Shown here one piece after another: positions 31,941-57,581 of a DNA stretch of 64,000 nt. Source of the stretch: an uncultured Candidatus Saccharibacteria bacterium (GTDB lineage: Bacteria > Patescibacteriota > UBA1384 > DTJR01). The translations under genes were made by a program, and so were the position numbers. The stretch's first letter is position 1; each line of letters begins with the position of its first letter. The notes below the pieces were generated by a model. That model ran no database searches, was not told where the DNA came from, and saw nothing but the letters and a program-made list of their open reading frames with translations. Location of the stretch: the NCBI GenBank assembly GCA_964473025.1, contig CAYYMZ010000002.1, forward strand, positions 3,241 through 67,240, written 5' to 3'.

Positions 31941-32116
31941 TGGTGCCGGGGGACAGAGTCGATCACAAGTCCAAATCTGCTGATTTGGCTCGCGATCCCC
32001 GCTCGGCCCCGTCGGGCCTGCGCGCTCCGCCTCTTGTCGACTGGCTCTCAAGTTATCGGCCAGTCGTCCCCGTCAGTTACAATCCTGTTTTGCTAATGCA
32101 AAACCAGGATTTGAAT
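31941..32116 (-). repeat. GC-rich ORF-less element el1, immediately 3' of tRNA-Phe; ends with a 22-nt copy of the tRNA-Phe 3' terminus (T-loop C56 to CCA)
   Basis: Minus-sense 3' end '...ACUUGUGA|UCGACUCUGUCCCCCGGCACCA' equals the last 22 nt of tRNA-Phe. Internal motifs 'GCGAUCCCCGCUCGG' and 'AAAUCAGCAGAUUU' are shared with el2, el4 and el5. Confidence 0.65.
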
Positions 32117-32192
32117 TGGTGCCGGGGGACAGAGTCGGACTGTCCACACCTGGTTTTTCAGACCAGTGCTCTAACCGCTGAGCTACCCCGGC
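32117..32192 (-). tRNA. tRNA-Phe (anticodon GAA), CCA encoded
   Basis: 'GCCGGGGUAGCUCAGCGGUUAGAGCA-CUGGU-CUGAAAA-ACCAG...CCCCGGCACCA'. Cloverleaf by eye; T-loop atypical 'UCCGACU'. Confidence 0.85.
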
Positions 32193-32310: not shown

Positions 32311-32340
32311 TGGTGGCCGCTACAGGATTCCGAACCTGTG
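32311..32340 (-). repeat. orphan tRNA 3'-fragment (T-arm-like + acceptor 3' strand + CCA: 'CACAGGUUCGGAAUCCUGUAGCGGCCACCA')
   Basis: Seen directly. No matching 5' half in the window. Sits 6 nt downstream of el2's CCA. Confidence 0.5.
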
Positions 32341-32349
32341 AATATTGTT

Positions 32350-32496
32350 TGGTGCGTCCAAGAGGACTCGGTCACAAGTTCGCGCCTGCTGGTGCGCCTC
32401 GCGACCCCGCCTCGCGCCCGTCGGCGCTGCGGCCTTCTCGTCCTCGGCTCCCAAATATTTGTTTGTCCTGGCCCTTCAGGCCCGGCCAAACAAATC
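32350..32496 (-). repeat. GC-rich ORF-less element el2, immediately 3' of tRNA-Val; ends with a 21-nt copy of the tRNA-Val 3' terminus
   Basis: Minus-sense 3' end '...AACUUGUGAC|CGAGUCCUCUUGGACGCACCA' is identical to tRNA-Val from T-loop C56. Motifs 'GAGAAGGCCGCAGCGCCGACGGGCGCGAGGCGGGGUCGCGAG'. Confidence 0.65.
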
Positions 32497-32968: not shown

Positions 32969-33120
32969 TGGTGCCGAGGACAGGACTTGGTCACAAGTCG
33001 GCGCGATTCTAATTTTAAGGAATGCCCCGCTCGCGACCCCGCCTCCTTCACTCGCAAGCTCATTCAGTCCGGCTTTCAAGTCCGTCCATCCCAAATACAT
33101 AAAATCCGCCCCTTGCGGGA
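32969..33120 (-). repeat. GC-rich ORF-less element el3; ends with a 21-nt copy of the tRNA-Leu(GAG) 3' terminus although that tRNA lies 1.2 kb away across dedA
   Basis: Minus-sense 3' end '...GACUUGUGAC|CAAGUCCUGUCCUCGGCACCA' equals the tRNA-Leu(GAG) T-loop to CCA. Motif 'CGAGGCGGGGUCGCGAGCGGGGC'. Confidence 0.6.
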
Positions 33121-33384
33121 CGAATTTTATGTCTGGTGCAGGATAATTAGAATAGTTCGAACGCATTTCGGCCTCGAAGCGGCTGTAAAAGTCCGAAATT
33201 TCCAAGAGGGACTATGAACTTTGACAGTCGCAGACAAGAGCCATTTCGTGCTCATTTTCCGGTGGCGATCAATATCCAGCCACAAGAGGTGTGAAAAAGA
33301 CAAGTATCAAAATTACGATGGTGATAAAAAACAACTCTCAATTTTTTTCTAATTATTTATCGGTTACCGCGAACTATAAAAAAA

Positions 33385-34095
33385 TCAAACATCATCGTTA
33401 AGATGTTCTTTTTTGAGTGTTTTCTCTATGTCTTTATAAGTCGCATGTTCAAGTTGCTGTTTTGATATTTTGGGTCCGCGTTTGTATTTTACATATTCAA
33501 TAAACATAGGCATTAGCGAAAGAGCGATGATTCCAAAGACAGCGTATTCGAAATTTGCCTTGATCACCGGTAGACCGCCGAAGAAGTATCCGGCAAATGT
33601 AAGAGAGGTCACCCATAAAAATGCTCCCGCAACATTGTAGAGAAGAAAAGTATTGTAATGCATTTTGCCGATACCGGCAACAAAGGGCGCAAAGGTGCGA
33701 ATAATTGGCAAAAATCGGGCGAGGATTATCGTCTTTCCTCCGTATTTGTCATAAAACTCACGCGTCTTTTCCAAGTAGGCCTTGTTGAAAAATCGCGAGT
33801 TTTGTTTAGAAAAAACCCGAGGCCCGACATAATGTCCAATCCAGTAGTTTGCGGTATCACCAAGCACAGCAGCGACCAGCATAATAGTATATATGGTCCA
33901 TATATCTAAGAATCCGCCGCCGGCAAGGGCCCCTACAGCAAATAGCAATGAATCTCCGGGCAAAAACGGTGTTACGACAAGGCCTGTTTCGGCGAAGATG
34001 ATGGCAAATATTATTACATAAGTCCAGCTACCAAAAACCGTGATGATATTACCCAGGTGTTTGTCAATGTGAAATATAAAATCAAAAATTTCCAT
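33385..34095 (-). CDS. DedA-family membrane protein
   Basis: 'VTPFLPGDSLLFAVGALAG' and a DedA (SNARE-associated) TM pattern. Confidence 0.85.
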   Translation of the reverse strand: MEIFDFIFHIDKHLGNIITVFGSWTYVIIFAIIFAETGLVVTPFLPGDSLLFAVGALAGGGFLDIWTIYTIMLVAAVLGDTANYWIGHYVGPRVFSKQNSRFFNKAYLEKTREFYDKYGGKTIILARFLPIIRTFAPFVAGIGKMHYNTFLLYNVAGAFLWVTSLTFAGYFFGGLPVIKANFEYAVFGIIALSLMPMFIEYVKYKRGPKISKQQLEHATYKDIEKTLKKEHLNDDV

Positions 34096-34192
34096 AATAA
34101 ATTCTCATTTAACCTTGTTTTTAAAATAAAATTAGCTGCCAACCAAAACTAGATTTCGCCGTCCTACGTCGCCACATGGTGGCTATGCGATC

Positions 34193-34280
34193 TGGTGCCG
34201 AGGACAGGACTTGAACCTGCACGGGATTGCTCCCACTACCACCTCAAGGTAGCGTGTATACCAAATTTCACCACCTCGGC
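34193..34280 (-). tRNA. tRNA-Leu (anticodon GAG), CCA encoded
   Basis: 'GCCGAGGUGGUGAAAUUUGGUAUACACGCU-ACCUU-GAGGU-GGUAG' + long variable arm + 'GCAGGUUCAAGUCCUGU-CCUCGGCACCA'. Confidence 0.82.
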
Positions 34281-34321
34281 ACAAAAATGAATTATAAATT
34301 AAAAAAGTGCAAAACTCAATG

Positions 34322-34470
34322 GGTTTATCTCGTTGGTGCCGAAGGCGAGACTCGGTCACGCATAAAATTCTGCTGAATTTTTGCGCGACCCCGGCTCGGC
34401 ACCGTCGTGCCTGCGCCTTTCGAGTTTTCTCGGGCGCACCAACGAAATCCAAACCCTATCGGGTTTATCT
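34322..34470 (-). repeat. GC-rich ORF-less element el4; ends with a 34-nt copy of the 3' end (plus 13 nt of downstream flank) of the tRNA-like fragment at 34474..34532
   Basis: 'gggtttatctcgttggtgccgaaggcgagactcg' occurs at 34322..34355 and again at 34461..34494. Internal 'GCGCGACCCCGGCUCGGCACCGUCGUGCCUGCGCC' and 'AAAUUCUGCUGAAUUU' motifs. Confidence 0.6.
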
Positions 34471-34473
34471 CGT

Positions 34474-34532
34474 TGGTGCCGAAGGCGAGACTCGAACTCG
34501 CACGCCCTTGCGGGCACTGGCTCCCTTGCCCC
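34474..34532 (-). repeat. tRNA 3'-portion fragment (variable arm + T-arm 'GCGAGUUCGAGUCUCGC' + acceptor 3' 'CUUCGGC' + ACCA) separated from its putative 5' partner by an intact tRNA-Leu(CAG)
   Basis: Acceptor 3' strand 'CUUCGGC' is complementary to the 5' acceptor 'GCCGAAG' of the 5' fragment at 34686..34715. Confidence 0.5.
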
Positions 34533-34538
34533 GTTAAA

Positions 34539-34625
34539 TGGTGGGCGCGAGAGGAGTCGAACCTCCACGCCGTTGCCGACACATGATCCTGAATCATGCC
34601 TGTATACCAATTTCAGCACGCGCCC
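34539..34625 (-). tRNA. tRNA-Leu (anticodon CAG), CCA encoded
   Basis: 'GGGCGCGUGCUGAAAUUGGUAUACAGG-CAUGA-UUCAGGA-UCAUG' + long variable arm + 'GGAGGUUCGACUCCUCU-CGCGCCCACCA'. Confidence 0.8.
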
Positions 34626-34685
34626 AATTTATACGGGGTGAACAAGCGTGTATACCCGCCTGCAGAAGCTATCGCTTCAGCGACT

Positions 34686-34715
34686 GCGTGTATACCAATT
34701 TCACCACTTCGGCAC
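34686..34715 (-). repeat. tRNA-Leu-like 5' fragment (acceptor 5' strand + D-arm 'GCCGAAGUGGUGAAAUUGGUAUACACGC') not followed by an anticodon arm
   Basis: Near-identical to the first 30 nt of tRNA-Leu(GAG); downstream sequence does not fold as a tRNA. Confidence 0.5.
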
Positions 34716-34740
34716 TGATTTTCAAGGAATATTCGCGAGC

Positions 34741-34822
34741 TCCATCTCGCAAAGCCATGGCCTTGCGGCCACTGGCTCCTGAAGCCAGCGCGTCTACCAA
34801 TTTCGCCACCTGCCCTTTTTCT
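34741..34822 (-). pseudogene. tRNA-Leu(CAG)-like pseudogene: acceptor 5', D-arm, anticodon arm (loop UUCAGGA), variable arm and a degenerate T-hairpin, but no matching acceptor 3' strand/CCA
   Basis: 'GGGCAGGUGGCGAAAUUGGUAGACGCG-CUGGC-UUCAGGA-GCCAG-UGGCCGCAAGGCCAU-...GCGAGAUGGAGCUCGC'. Confidence 0.45.
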
Positions 34823-34980
34823 CCTTATAACAGTACTATAAACCGAGTACTTTGTCTATTCCCGCACCAGAGGGCATTCAACTCTTCATCTAGCGGCAGA
34901 AATACACGATAAAAAGCCCTCGGTGCGGGATTTCGCAAATTATCAAAGCGTAATGCTTAACTGCTGTCGGGAGAACTCAC

Positions 34981-57064: not shown

Positions 57065-57171
57065 GACGTGGGATGGTGGTAGTGACCGGATTCGAACCTG
57101 TGACCTAGGGGTTATGATTCCCTCGCTCCCAGCCTCATCGGCTGGTCCGCCGTAGAGGCGGATAACTTCAC
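57065..57171 (-). repeat. tRNA-Met-like 3' fragment (anticodon arm with CAU, T-arm, acceptor 3', CCA) lacking a matching 5' acceptor; joined to tRNA-Met by a 'UUUAACGGGG' linker
   Basis: '...GAGCGAGGGAAUCAUAACCCCUAGGUCACAGGUUCGAAUCCGGUCACUACCACCA'. The same 'CCA-UUUAACGGGG' junction follows tRNA-Leu(CAG) at 34532..34538. Confidence 0.5.
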
Positions 57172-57246
57172 CCCGTTAAATGGTGGTAGCAGGAGGGTTC
57201 GAACCTCCGACCTAAGGGTTATGATTCCTTCGCTCTACCACTGAGC
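57172..57246 (-). tRNA. tRNA-Met/Ile2 (anticodon CAU), CCA encoded
   Basis: 'GGUAGCAUAGCUCAGUGGUAGAGCG-AAGGA-AUCAUAA-CCCUU-AGGUC-GGAGGUUCGAACCCUCC-UGCUACCACCA' with full acceptor pairing. Confidence 0.8.
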
Positions 57247-57351
57247 TATGCTACCTTCGTTATCTAATAAAATTAACGGGGCATGCTGAGCTACACTACC
57301 GTAGCTACAGTGATATTTTACGCGCTCAACCTTAAAATGTAAAGTGTCTTT

Positions 57352-57405: not shown

Positions 57406-57581
57406 GCCTACCAGCAGGGATTCGGTCACCCGCCGAAATCTGCTGATTTCGCGGTCGACCCCGTTTATTAATTCCCTGTCGGATTATTCGCGAGTTCCAC
57501 CCTCGCGAAGCGCGCCGTCGCGCTCCGGCCTTCTCATCCCACCCGCCAAAATGGCTCGCCCCCTTCGGGTGCAATCCATTT
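57406..57581 (-). repeat. GC-rich ORF-less element el5, immediately 3' of tRNA-Met(CAU); ends with a degenerate copy of the tRNA 3' region ('GUGAC|CGAAUCCCUGCUGGUAGGCA')
   Basis: Shares 'GAGAAGGCCGGAGCGCGACGGCGCGC', 'GGGGUCGACCGCG' and 'AAAUCAGCAGAUUU' blocks with el1, el2 and el4. The first 40 nt after the tRNA CCA form a long hairpin. Confidence 0.6.

What the first reader, a model, noticed from the sequence alone, without database searches (positions are those of the whole stretch)
34474..34840. Mosaic of tRNA-Leu halves around an intact tRNA-Leu(CAG): a split or disrupted tRNA and a tRNA pseudogene
Read on the minus strand, the region contains four pieces in this order:
- A tRNA-Leu(CAG)-like gene, complete through the variable arm, but with a degenerate T hairpin ('GCGAGAUGGAGCUCGC') and no acceptor 3' strand (34741..34822).
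- A 5' fragment 'GCCGAAGUGGUGAAAUUGGUAUACACGC' (acceptor 5' strand plus D-arm; 34686..34715), followed by non-tRNA sequence that contains a second 'GUAUACACGC' D-arm remnant.
- An intact tRNA-Leu(CAG) (34539..34625).
- Joined by 'UUUAACGGGG', a 3' fragment with variable arm, T-arm 'GCGAGUUCGAGUCUCGC', acceptor 'CUUCGGC' and ACCA (34474..34532).

The acceptor strands of the 5' fragment and the 3' fragment are perfectly complementary (GCCGAAG / CUUCGGC). This suggests one ancestral tRNA-Leu gene was split by insertion of ~190 bp carrying another tRNA-Leu. A split or permuted gene is an alternative.

The junction 'CCA-UUUAACGGGG' recurs after tRNA-Met at 57171..57165, so the same insertion/recombination junction was used at two loci.
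Basis: seen in the sequence. Interest (0 to 1): 0.7.

Follow-up and report, generated by a model that had tools for sequence, protein, structure and literature searches.

The report
tRNA gene split by tRNA-carrying mini-element
In an uncultured CPR (Patescibacteria-like) bacterium, a small repeat-bounded DNA cassette carrying its own leucine tRNA gene landed inside the resident leucine tRNA gene and replaced it; a methionine tRNA gene 23 kb away shows the same arrangement, pointing to an apparently undescribed kind of tRNA-gene-invading element.

Summary
The four pieces are real (minus strand). Two related metagenomic genomes (L041, L042) have one uninterrupted tRNA-Leu(CAG), GCCGAAG...CTTCGGCACCA, at the same locus. 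The window's 5' piece (34713-34686) and 3' piece (34524-34474) are therefore halves of that gene.

- **The insert.** A ~114-bp cassette (34642-34529) sits at the anticodon loop. It has inverted repeats TTCACCCCGT(A)TAAA / TTTAACGGGG around an intact, foreign tRNA-Leu(CAG).
- **Recurrence.** The same cassette type splits a tRNA-Met gene at 57300-57074. It also occurs in other metagenomes, carrying tRNA-Ser and tRNA-Arg. The cargo always matches the broken gene.
- **Decay of the halves.** A 29-nt hairpin insert flanked by an 11-nt duplication, plus a damaged anticodon stem.
- **Piece 1 (34815-34714).** A third Leu(CAG) 5' part fused to a module of a structured ~85-nt element. That element follows five tRNAs here and ends in a copy of each tRNA's 3' end, like E. 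coli RtT.
- **Possible driver.** An 83-aa GIY-YIG gene sits in tRNA-Cys and is absent from three relatives. Three homologues lie next to tRNA genes with duplicated tRNA parts. That this nuclease moves the cassettes is inferred.

This is not a functional split tRNA, a group I intron or an assembly artefact.

The parts
34755..34815 (-). P1: the 5' two-thirds (acceptor 5' strand to variable arm) of a third tRNA-Leu(CAG)-like gene, GGGCAGG.... A pseudogene with no acceptor 3' strand.
   Evidence: Sequence. Rfam tRNA 24.9 bits, below the gathering score of 29. ARAGORN finds nothing. No CCTGCCC partner nearby. Absent from L041, L042 and L043.
34714..34754 (-). Tail of P1: module M hairpin GCGAG-ATGGAG-CTCGC + GAATATTCC (34754-34726), then TTGAAAATCAGT.
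   Evidence: Homologous modules lie inside the trailing elements of tRNA-fMet (window, about 57,500) and of tRNA-Val in L041. A related terminator hairpin follows tRNA-Val in L040. Flagged as terminator-like.
34686..34713 (-). F5: positions 1-28 of the resident tRNA-Leu(CAG) gene.
   Evidence: 100% identical to L041:7391-7418, the start of the intact gene.
34657..34685 (-). 29-nt hairpin insert AGTCGCTGAAGCGATAGCTTCTGCAGGCG, flanked by an 11-nt duplication GGTATACACGC (34696-34686 and 34656-34646).
   Evidence: Absent from the intact gene in L041. Its only other copy in the held data is at the end of L040, in the opposite orientation.
34639..34656 (-). Second copy of resident positions 18-35 (GGTATACACGCTTGTTCA). 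It carries one substitution and a 1-nt deletion in the anticodon stem. Its last 4 nt overlap the left inverted repeat.
   Evidence: Alignment of the rejoined halves with the L041 gene. ARAGORN reads the rejoined halves as a defective tRNA, '?(Leu|Pro)'.
34628..34642 (-). Left inverted repeat of the cassette, TTCACCCCGT(A)TAAA.
   Evidence: Reverse complement of TTTAACGGGGTGAA with one extra base. It pairs with the right repeat in the fold.
34539..34625 (-). Cargo: an intact tRNA-Leu(CAG), GGGCGCG...CGCGCCCACCA. It is the only intact Leu(CAG) gene in the window.
   Evidence: ARAGORN. Rfam 51 bits. 69% identical to the resident gene, with differences concentrated in the stems.
34525..34538 (-). 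Right inverted repeat TTTAACGGGG (34538-34529), starting directly after the CCA, then CAAG.
   Evidence: The same 10-mer follows the CCA in the Met, Ser and Arg cassettes.
34474..34524 (-). F3: positions 36-76 plus CCA of the resident tRNA-Leu(CAG) gene.
   Evidence: Aligns to L041:7427-7477. The variable arm differs by paired changes.
34321..34473 (-). E_Leu: a structured trailing element of the resident gene. It ends in a 34-nt copy (34354-34321) of the tRNA 3' end plus 13 nt of trailer (first copy 34494-34461).
   Evidence: Direct repeat. Covariance model R1 scores 87.3 bits at 34431-34348. Present in L041 and L042, absent in L043.
34193..34280 (-). tRNA-Leu(GAG), intact, with its own promoter-like site (34319-34291).
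57074..57300 (-). Second mosaic of the same kind, at a tRNA-Met gene. Order: resident 5' fragment 57300-57285; left repeat CCCCGTTAA 57281-57273; intact cargo tRNA-Met 57255-57181; right repeat TTTAACGGGGTGAA 57180-57167; two small hairpins; resident 3' part 57131-57074.
   Evidence: The rejoined halves read as tRNA-Met(CAT) with a T-stem mismatch. Reproduced 100% in L034 and L055.
38040..38354 (+). GIY-YIG element inserted in the 3' part of tRNA-Cys. It holds an 83-aa ORF (38044-38295), the palindromes TCACGCGAAGCGTGA / TCACGCTTCGCGTGA, and a 22-nt copy of the tRNA-Cys 3' end (38333-38354; first copy 38018-38039).
   Evidence: Pfam GIY-YIG, E = 1e-8. Repeat D17. The element is absent at tRNA-Cys in L041, L042 and L043. 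The ORF lacks the near-invariant Arg and His.
31941..32116 (-). E_Phe, the trailing element of tRNA-Phe. It ends in a copy of the tRNA-Phe 3' end.
   Evidence: R1 scores 89.4 bits. Orthologues in L040 and L039 carry compensatory changes.
32350..32496 (-). E_Val, the trailing element of tRNA-Val.
   Evidence: R1 scores 88.1 bits. Absent after tRNA-Val in L040.
32969..33138 (-). E_LeuGAG. It ends in a copy of the tRNA-Leu(GAG) 3' end but is separated from that tRNA by a 1.05-kb insert carrying a DedA gene.
   Evidence: R1 scores 47.5 bits although it was not in the training set. In L041 it follows tRNA-Leu(GAG) directly and is doubled.
57418..57581 (-). E_fMet, the trailing element of the initiator-like tRNA-Met. 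It contains module M.
   Evidence: R1 scores 50.3 bits.

Best explanation
The locus is a resident tRNA-Leu(CAG) gene that was broken by insertion and functionally replaced by the insert's own tRNA.

Shown:
- A cassette of about 114 bp sits in the anticodon-loop region of the resident gene (about position 35/36, with TTCA microhomology). It consists of a 14-15-nt inverted repeat, 2 nt (TG), an intact foreign tRNA-Leu(CAG), and the partner repeat starting directly after the CCA.
- The insertion left a 5' half and a 3' half whose acceptor strands still match.
- The halves are decaying. They carry a further 29-nt hairpin insert with an 11-nt duplication and a damaged anticodon stem.
- An extra pseudo-tRNA-Leu (P1), fused to a module of the local tRNA-trailing elements, sits exactly at the 5' end of the old gene.
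- The same cassette type broke a tRNA-Met gene 23 kb away. It also occurs in two other metagenomic organisms with tRNA-Ser and tRNA-Arg cargo.
- In all four cases the cargo has the same identity as the broken gene.

Inferred:
- The cassette is a non-autonomous mobile element.
- It can survive inside an essential tRNA gene because it brings the replacement with it.
- It belongs to a wider set of small hairpin-ended elements that target tRNA genes in this CPR (Patescibacteria-like) lineage. Some of these encode an 83-85-aa GIY-YIG nuclease.
- Movement is most likely by nuclease-made breaks in tRNA genes, repaired by copying from an occupied allele (homing-like). An alternative is a hairpin-dependent cut-and-paste step. 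No step of the movement has been observed.
For: - Empty site: L041 and L042, from two different samples, carry the intact gene between the same upstream region and the same E_Leu and tRNA-Leu(GAG). L043 also has it intact.
- The cargo is only 69% identical to the resident gene, whereas the rejoined halves are 93-95% identical to the relatives' gene.
- The inverted repeats recur. TTTAACGGGG(TGA) lies directly after the CCA in the Leu, Met, Ser (L032/L038) and Arg (L033) cassettes, with CCCCGTTAA-type partners upstream. The repeats pair into a 10-13-bp stem around the cloverleaf in all four.
- The identity rule holds in 4 of 4 cases, and the outer acceptor strands are complementary, with one G-G mismatch in the Arg cassette (L033).
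- The Met mosaic is assembled whole in two other data sets. Both sides of the Leu mosaic are reproduced in other assemblies.
- Decay of the halves.
- The neighbourhood shows active small insertions at tRNA genes. The GIY-YIG element at tRNA-Cys is absent from three relatives. Trailing E elements are present or absent between close relatives.
- GIY-YIG homologues sit next to tRNA genes with duplicated tRNA parts and hairpin repeats in L045/L046, L047 and L048. One homologue lies inside a 23S rRNA gene.
- No integrase or transposase domain was found in the 18 neighbouring proteins scanned.
Against: - No cassette with a nuclease gene and the same inverted repeats was found. The link to GIY-YIG rests on architecture and on similar TCRC...GYGA hairpin feet.
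- The GIY-YIG copy in the window lacks the near-invariant Arg and His and is probably inactive.
- The insertion points differ: the anticodon loop in Leu, the D loop in Met. This does not fit one strict target site.
- There is no clear target-site duplication for the cassette itself.
- Only four cassettes are known, and none were found in 185,579 reference genomes, although that collection was never scanned with the cassette pattern itself.
- The central 48 nt of the Leu mosaic are supported by one assembly only.
- Expression of the cargo tRNA has not been shown.
Confidence: 0.78

Rival explanations
1. Functional split tRNA. The 5' and 3' halves are separate transcripts or processing products. 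They pair through the acceptor stem (and the CCCCGUUAA/UUAACGGGG helix) to give a working two-piece tRNA-Leu, as in Nanoarchaeum.
For: The acceptor strands are perfectly complementary. The inverted repeats would form a helix between the halves. The outer acceptor strands are complementary in three of the four cassettes; in the fourth (L033) they have one G-G mismatch.
Against: - Relatives have the continuous gene.
- The 5' half carries an extra 40 nt and a damaged anticodon stem.
- The Met 3' half has T-stem and anticodon-stem mismatches.
- An intact tRNA with the same anticodon sits in the middle.
- By my own knowledge, bacteria lack the archaeal splicing endonuclease; this was not tested here.
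Confidence: 0.03
2. Local duplication and decay. Tandem copies of tRNA-Leu genes arose by unequal recombination or slippage and then degenerated, with no mobile element involved.
For: tRNA-like segments share short repeats such as AAATTGGTATACA. Trailing elements can be tandem, as in L041 and at E. coli tyrT.
Against: - The cargo differs from the resident gene mainly in its stems (69% identity).
- It is nested inside the old gene rather than beside it.
- It is bounded by inverted repeats that recur at the Met locus and in other organisms with other tRNAs.
Confidence: 0.06
3. RNA-level design rather than DNA mobility. The stem that closes over the tRNA is a processing signal, like the stems around rRNAs. 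The outer tRNA halves with the trailing element form a structured precursor or a tRNA-like RNA with its own role.
For: - The trailing E elements have strong, strand-specific covariation, including invariant G-U pairs.
- In L032 and L033 the same T-arm-like GGGGUGAAAAUCCCUC precedes two different acceptor 3' strands.
- E. coli RtT is released as an RNA (preprint 10.1101/2024.07.17.603846, as read).
Against: The intact gene without the cassette in close relatives shows the arrangement is a recent DNA insertion, and the halves are decaying. This reading does not exclude an RNA role for the stem. It explains how the cargo is processed, not how it got there.
Confidence: 0.08
4. Assembly artefact: the mosaic is a mis-join or collapse of repeated tRNA-Leu sequences.
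For: Other short-read contigs stop at the repeated AAATTGGTATACA, so 34661-34614 is covered only by the window.
Against: - Both flanking parts, including the cargo/TTTAACGGGG/3'-half junction and the P1/5'-half/hairpin-insert junction, are identical in several independent assemblies.
- The parallel Met mosaic is assembled whole twice elsewhere.
- Homologous cassettes exist in unrelated samples.
Confidence: 0.04

Closest known systems
RtT repeat units of the E. coli tyrT-tyrV operon (Rfam RF00391)
   Same: They lie directly 3' of a tRNA gene, are about 130-180 nt long and can be tandem. Each unit ends with a copy of the tRNA 3' end that starts in the T loop. This was checked in K-12: four copies of AATCCTTCCCCCACCACCA downstream of the tRNA-Tyr genes. 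They share the motif GGATGAGAAG with the window's elements. RtT-like units in L017 score 29 bits on RF00391.
   Different: The window's E elements do not reach E <= 10 on RF00391. They have their own conserved core (GCAG-hairpin-CGA-GGGG-UCGCGAG...CUUGUGAC). RtT is not known to carry or flank an embedded tRNA, or to split tRNA genes.
Integrase-type genomic islands and prophages that integrate into tRNA genes
   Same: The insertion lies inside a tRNA gene. The element carries the tRNA part that restores the gene. A displaced copy of the tRNA 3' end is left behind as a direct repeat.
   Different: The elements here are 114-315 bp and have no integrase. The cassette carries a whole tRNA of foreign sequence and leaves the old gene broken. 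It has inverted rather than direct repeats. Insertion points include the D loop and the anticodon loop.
Free-standing GIY-YIG homing endonuclease genes (for example the T4 seg genes; segB lies in the T4 tRNA cluster; from my own knowledge)
   Same: A small GIY-YIG gene is inserted in or next to conserved RNA genes. It shows presence/absence variation between close relatives, and one homologue lies inside a 23S rRNA gene.
   Different: The protein is 83-85 aa, a catalytic domain only, with no DNA-binding domain. The element has hairpin or inverted-repeat ends and duplicates tRNA parts. The Leu and Met cassettes have no ORF at all. No nuclease activity or homing has been shown.
MITEs (miniature inverted-repeat transposable elements)
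   Same: Short, without an ORF, bounded by terminal inverted repeats, and present in several copies.
   Different: The cassette carries a functional tRNA gene. It is found inside tRNA genes of the same identity. No clear target-site duplication and no parent transposon with the same ends is known.
Group I introns at position 35/36 of Patescibacteria tRNA genes (PMC13011429)
   Same: The same phylum-level group and, for the Leu case, about the same position in the anticodon loop.
   Different: No group I core: Rfam gives no Intron_gpI match at E <= 10. The cassette is only about 114 nt and contains a complete tRNA. The Met case is in the D loop. The interrupted gene is decaying.
Split tRNA genes of Nanoarchaeum equitans (from my own knowledge)
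   Same: tRNA halves with matching acceptor strands and a complementary helix next to the break.
   Different: The halves here are adjacent, separated by a working tRNA of the same anticodon. They are recent (the gene is intact in relatives) and damaged.

Membership tests
Functional split tRNA | No continuous gene for that tRNA in the lineage; the halves are the only source of that anticodon | tested here: not met
   An intact tRNA-Leu(CAG) lies between the halves. Relatives have the continuous gene.
Functional split tRNA | The joined halves give a canonical cloverleaf | tested here: not met
   The rejoined Leu halves have a 1-nt deletion and a mismatch in the anticodon stem, and ARAGORN calls them '?(Leu|Pro)'. 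There is an extra 40 nt in the 5' half.
Group I intron in tRNA | Group I catalytic core detectable by covariance model | tested here: not met
   No Intron_gpI match at E <= 10 in 34100-35000, nor at E <= 1 in L032 or L033.
Group I intron in tRNA | Insertion in the anticodon loop | tested here: inconclusive
   The Leu cassette lies at about 35/36, with the junction blurred by TTCA microhomology. The Met cassette lies in the D loop at 16/17.
RtT RNA (RF00391), for the E elements | Score at or above the Rfam gathering threshold (45 bits) | tested here: not met
   No match at E <= 10. L017 elements from another organism reach 29 bits.
RtT RNA (RF00391), for the E elements | Unit directly 3' of a tRNA that ends with a copy of the tRNA 3' end starting in the T loop | tested here: met
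   Window. E. coli K-12.
MITE | Terminal inverted repeats and no ORF | tested here: met
   Repeats of 13-15 nt in four cassettes. The length of 114-130 nt is filled by the tRNA.
MITE | Target-site duplication of fixed length | tested here: not met
   No duplication flanks the Leu or Met cassette. The Leu junction shows a small deletion or microhomology instead.
MITE | Autonomous parent element with the same ends | tested here: inconclusive
   None among the 55 loci held. The public collections could be scanned only once each.
Integrase-type tRNA-integrating element | Tyrosine or serine recombinase gene in the element | tested here: not met
   The elements are 114-315 bp. No recombinase domain was found in the 18 neighbouring proteins scanned.
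GIY-YIG homing endonuclease gene (element at tRNA-Cys) | GIY-YIG domain | tested here: met
   PF01541, E = 1e-8. 126 homologues, nearly all 81-90 aa.
GIY-YIG homing endonuclease gene (element at tRNA-Cys) | Catalytic Arg (and the conserved His) present | tested here: not met
   The window copy has G and I/S where 90% or more of the homologues have R25 and H29. The +1 frame still reads R-F-D-Q-H.
GIY-YIG homing endonuclease gene (element at tRNA-Cys) | Presence/absence at the same site in close relatives | tested here: met
   Absent at tRNA-Cys in L041, L042 and L043. The native flank follows the second repeat copy.
GIY-YIG homing endonuclease gene (element at tRNA-Cys) | Site-specific cleavage of the empty allele | not testable with these tools
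   Needs a biochemical assay.

The most novel reading that the evidence does not exclude
The cassettes, the GIY-YIG elements and the RtT-like trailing units may be one undescribed superfamily of miniature hairpin-ended elements. These would home into tRNA (and rRNA) genes, driven by an ~85-aa GIY-YIG nuclease. They would stay harmless by carrying the piece of tRNA, or the whole tRNA, that they destroy. The result would be serial replacement of tRNA genes by foreign copies. This would also give a mobile-element origin for the long-unexplained RtT repeats of E. coli.
Probability: 0.3. Interest if true: 0.85.

Novelty: new variant of a known kind. Interest (0 to 1): 0.66.

Why it matters
- **A new way to invade an essential gene.** Mobile DNA that enters a tRNA gene normally restores the gene by carrying its 3' end. 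Here a tiny ORF-less cassette brings a complete foreign tRNA and leaves the old gene to decay. tRNA genes in these small genomes can therefore be replaced horizontally, one at a time.
- **A trap for annotation.** It explains orphan tRNA halves and pseudo-tRNAs in CPR genomes. Fragments could be misread as split or permuted genes.
- **A candidate activity for a common protein family.** It links very small, widespread GIY-YIG proteins to insertions in tRNA and rRNA genes.
- **A lead on RtT.** It ties a new structured element with covariation support to the E. coli RtT repeats, whose function has been unknown since about 1980 (date from my own knowledge).

Tried and rejected
**Searches that led nowhere**
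- Genome collection scan with the neighbouring SBP protein: no relatives.
- Genome collection scan with an E-element pattern: two chance hits, in a Halococcaceae archaeon and a Leucobacter.
- Viral collection scans with the cassette pattern and an E pattern: one chance hit each, a phage tRNA cluster and a low-complexity coding region.
- Metagenome scan: most of the 24 hits were chance, because the next tRNA begins with GGGG.
- Rfam: nothing except tRNA in the region. The weak permuted-tmRNA and CRISPR-repeat hits are noise.
- Covariance model R1 found no E-like core in L032, L033 or L017. Homology between the inner region of those cassettes and the E elements therefore rests on short motifs only.

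**Ideas considered and dropped**
- Group I intron: no catalytic core.
- Functional split tRNA: the halves are damaged and the gene is intact in relatives.
- Classical integrase attL/attR remnants: no integrase, the elements are too small, and the repeats are inverted.
- CRISPR-associated transposon homing spacers and TnpB/IscB guide RNAs: considered from memory and dropped. Every copy matches its own adjacent tRNA, and no such genes are nearby.
- P1 as the outermost shell of a nested gene: no matching acceptor 3' strand exists.

**Literature**
- Six searches found no description of GIY-YIG or inverted-repeat cassettes inside bacterial tRNA genes.
- The nearest paper is on group I introns in Patescibacteria tRNAs (PMC13011429).
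- One hit listed for RtT (PMC10542128) no longer contains the term in its current version.
Full report
**1. Observation**

All features are read on the minus strand.

- P1, a tRNA-Leu(CAG)-like 5' part, lies at 34815-34755. It scores 24.9 bits on the Rfam tRNA model, below the gathering score of 29. ARAGORN does not call it. No partner for its acceptor strand lies nearby.
- P1 is followed by a hairpin, GCGAG-ATGGAG-CTCGC, and a tail running to 34714.
- The 5' fragment GCCGAAGTGGTGAAATTGGTATACACGC is 34713-34686.
- The intact tRNA-Leu(CAG) is 34625-34539.
- TTTAACGGGG is 34538-34529.
- The 3' fragment is 34524-34474.
- GCCGAAG and CTTCGGC are complementary.

TTTAACGGGG has two perfect copies in the window. 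Both start directly after the CCA of an intact tRNA. The second copy is at 57180-57171, after tRNA-Met. The one-mismatch copies listed are at chance level.

**2. It is not an assembly artefact**

Contigs from other ENA, JGI and Logan assemblies that carry the neighbouring genes are identical to the window on both sides.
- On the right they run from inside the cargo tRNA, through the 3' fragment, to the DedA gene.
- On the left they run from the SBP gene, through P1 and the 5' fragment, into the 29-nt insert.
- They stop at the thrice-repeated AAATTGGTATACA. The 48 nt at 34661-34614 therefore rest on the window alone.
- The parallel Met mosaic is assembled whole, and identically, in L034 and L055.

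**3. The organism**

The best named matches of the ribosomal protein S1 homologue are candidate division WS2 (67% identity) and Berkelbacteria (54%). The SBP protein's best named matches are Berkelbacteria. This is an uncultured CPR (Patescibacteria-like) bacterium. The window otherwise carries housekeeping genes.

**4. The empty site**

L041 and L042 are relatives whose SBP protein is 90% identical to the window's. They come from two different samples. Both have, directly after the same upstream sequence, one uninterrupted tRNA-Leu(CAG):

GCCGAAGTGGTGAAATTGGTATACACGCTGGCTTCAGGAGCCAGTG...CTTCGGCACCA

It is followed by the same trailing element and by tRNA-Leu(GAG). L043, whose SBP is 72% identical, also has the gene intact, in the opposite orientation.

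The window's two fragments are therefore the halves of this gene. Rejoined, they are 93-95% identical to the relatives' gene. They have one substitution and a 1-nt deletion in the anticodon stem, and ARAGORN no longer reads them as a clean tRNA-Leu.

Compared with the empty site, the window has three insertions.
- (a) 102 nt (P1 plus its tail), exactly between the upstream region and base 1 of the old gene.
- (b) A 29-nt hairpin-containing insert (34685-34657), flanked by an 11-nt duplication GGTATACACGC.
- (c) The cassette, 34642-34529 (about 114 nt).

The cassette junction lies in the anticodon loop, at about position 35/36. TTCA is shared between the target and the repeat.

**5. The cassette**

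It is bounded by inverted repeats: TTCACCCCGT(A)TAAA on the left and TTTAACGGGG on the right. The full right form, seen elsewhere, is TTTAACGGGGTGAA.

The cargo is a sound tRNA-Leu(CAG). It is only 69% identical to the old gene, and the differences are concentrated in the stems. It is therefore foreign and not a local duplicate.

The Met locus has the same build:
- old 5' fragment GGTAGTGTAGCTCAGC,
- CCCCGTTAA,
- a 17-nt leader,
- an intact tRNA-Met,
- TTTAACGGGGTGAA,
- two small hairpins,
- the old 3' part, from the D loop to the CCA.

The rejoined Met halves read as tRNA-Met with stem mismatches.

A scan of metagenome contigs for a tRNA 3' end followed by CCA and WTTAACGGGG gave 24 loci. Most are chance. 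L032/L038 and L033 are true relatives.
- They hold an intact tRNA-Ser(CGA) or tRNA-Arg(TCG) between CCCCGTTAAA or CCCCTTTAAA and TTTAACGGGGTGAAAATCCCTC.
- Upstream lies a 21-nt 5' fragment of a tRNA of the same type. Downstream lies an acceptor 3' strand that matches it (one G-G mismatch in L033).

In four of four cassettes the cargo has the identity of the broken gene. In all four, the repeats fold into a 10-13-bp stem that closes over the cloverleaf.

**6. The surroundings: trailing elements**

tRNA-Phe, tRNA-Val, the old tRNA-Leu(CAG), tRNA-Leu(GAG) and the initiator-like tRNA-Met are each followed by an element of about 130-180 nt. Each element ends with a copy of that tRNA's own 3' end, starting at T-loop position 56. 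I call these E elements.

Their roughly 85-nt core was aligned from nine copies in the window and its relatives.
- The consensus fold has 22 pairs, 95.9% of cells paired, and 14 pairs with compensatory changes. None of 500 shuffles reached these values, and slid controls reached only 32-41% paired.
- Two G-U pairs are invariant. The structure therefore exists only on the tRNA-sense strand, as an RNA or a single-stranded DNA.
- A covariance model built from the alignment finds all five window copies. It also finds copies that were not used to build it, including one after tRNA-Gly in L041 that the window lacks.

The elements come and go between close relatives.
- E_Val is missing in L040.
- E_Leu is missing in L043.
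- tRNA-Leu(GAG) has two tandem copies in L041.

Some copies contain an optional module, GCTT(T/C)GCGAG..GGA.CTCGC.AATA.TC. This is the same sequence as the tail of P1.

The closest known thing is the RtT repeat of the E. coli tyrT operon. I checked in K-12 that each 178-bp unit ends with a copy of the last 19 nt of tRNA-Tyr. Elements in an unrelated metagenome (L017) score 29 bits on Rfam RtT. The window's E elements do not score on that model, although they share GGATGAGAAG with RtT.

**7. The surroundings: a nuclease gene**

tRNA-Cys (37965-38038, plus strand) is followed by three things:
- an 83-aa GIY-YIG ORF,
- the palindromes TCACGCGAAGCGTGA and TCACGCTTCGCGTGA,
- an exact 22-nt copy of the tRNA-Cys 3' end.

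L041, L042 and L043 lack this 315-bp block. The native flank follows the second copy. It is therefore a recent insertion.

The window's ORF lacks the near-invariant Arg and His, apparently through a compensated double frameshift. It is probably dead.

Contexts of homologues:
- L045/L046 and L047 lie in the 16S - tRNA-Cys - tRNA-Ile region. The gene is preceded by hairpin repeats (GCCAGATCACGCTCTGCGTGA) and by a displaced copy of the tRNA 5' part. In L045 the intact tRNA-Ile is followed by the inverted partner repeat and by a copy of the tRNA-Ile 3' two-thirds (48 nt).
- L048 has three tandem GIY-YIG genes, two of them each preceded by a copy of a tRNA-Ser 5' part plus hairpins.
- In a Synergistetes genome the gene sits inside the 23S rRNA gene.
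- In an Omnitrophota contig there is no tRNA nearby.

So this small GIY-YIG family behaves like a selfish gene of conserved RNA genes. Its elements duplicate or carry tRNA parts. The hairpin feet TCRC...GYGA recur in the GIY-YIG palindromes, in the last stem of the E elements, and in the cassette repeats (TCAC...GTGA).

**8. Interpretation**

Shown:
- The insertion into a formerly intact gene.
- The foreign cargo.
- Recurrence of the same bounded cassette with four cargo tRNAs.
- The identity match between cargo and broken gene.
- Decay of the halves.
- Turnover of small elements at neighbouring tRNA genes.

Inferred:
- The cassette is a non-autonomous mobile element.
- The match of cargo and target reflects either homing into the cognate gene or survival only when the cargo replaces the lost function.
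- A GIY-YIG nuclease makes the breaks.

Points that do not fit a simple model:
- The insertion points differ between Leu and Met.
- The cassette has no target duplication.
- The right repeat always starts directly after the CCA, whereas the left leader varies in length.
- Duplication lengths around the other inserts range from 7 to 66 nt.

**9. Other checks**

- No integrase or transposase domain was found in the 18 neighbouring proteins scanned.
- The segment 34524-34191 (3' fragment, E_Leu, spacer, tRNA-Leu(GAG)) is 98.2% identical to L041, whereas the flanking genes are 82-85% identical. This means either strong constraint or recent lateral exchange of this block.
- The literature held here has no description of such cassettes. 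The nearest paper reports group I introns at 35/36 in Patescibacteria tRNAs (PMC13011429), and there is no group I core here.

**10. Verdict**

The locus is a broken and replaced tRNA gene in a hot spot of tiny tRNA-targeting elements. The element type appears to be undescribed. I rate it a new variant of known kinds (tRNA-integrating elements, MITEs, homing endonuclease genes, RtT).

Noticed in passing
window 31941-32116, 32350-32496, 32969-33138, 34321-34473, 57418-57581 (all minus strand): A family of structured elements follows tRNA genes, and each copy ends in a copy of its own tRNA's 3' end. The ~85-nt core has strong strand-specific covariation. Copies are present or absent between close relatives. 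The family resembles E. coli RtT but is not in Rfam.
   Followed up: yes
window 38040-38354 (plus strand): A 315-bp GIY-YIG element is inserted in the 3' part of tRNA-Cys with a 22-nt duplication. It is absent in three relatives. The ORF has lost the conserved Arg and His, apparently by a compensated double frameshift.
   Followed up: yes
window 33139-34190 (minus strand): A 1.05-kb segment carrying a DedA/VTT-domain gene (33385-34095) sits between tRNA-Leu(GAG) and its trailing element. It is flanked by the 7-nt repeat CACCAGA. Relatives L041 and L042 have no such gene there.
   Followed up: partly
window 32311-32340 (minus strand): An orphan tRNA 3' fragment, CACAGGTTCGGAATCCTGTAGCGGCCACCA (T arm, acceptor 3' strand and CCA), lies just after E_Val. 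No matching 5' part is nearby.
   Followed up: no
window 34191-34524 versus L041:7427-7760: This non-coding tRNA/E block is 98.2% identical between the two lineages, whereas the flanking protein genes are 82-85% identical. The cause is either strong constraint or recent lateral exchange.
   Followed up: partly
window 32117-32192 and 34193-34280, 34539-34625 (minus strand): Unusual tRNA details. tRNA-Phe has the T loop TCCGACT in place of TTCGA-type; the relative L039 has the usual TTCGATT. The Leu tRNAs have GGTATACA in the D loop where GGTAGACA is usual.
   Followed up: no
window 38361-38419 (plus strand): A 31-nt tandem duplication (CCTTTTGGGACTCAGTGTAAACTGTATT / CCTTCGAGGATTCAGTGTAAACTAAATT) lies just after the displaced tRNA-Cys 3' end. 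L041 has a single copy.
   Followed up: no
L017 and L019 (metagenome contigs Ga0316190): In another organism, tRNA-Lys and tRNA-Arg are followed by RtT-like units of about 160 nt. These end in copies of the tRNA 3' end and score 25-29 bits on Rfam RtT, below threshold.
   Followed up: partly
L050-L053 (Synergistetes contigs): A homologue of the small GIY-YIG gene lies inside the 23S rRNA gene. The Rfam LSU match spans the ORF.
   Followed up: partly
L040:1-22 versus window 34665-34683: The 29-nt hairpin insert of the Leu 5' half has one other copy in the held data, in the opposite orientation. It lies at the end of a contig from a close relative, about 100 nt upstream of tRNA-Val.
   Followed up: partly
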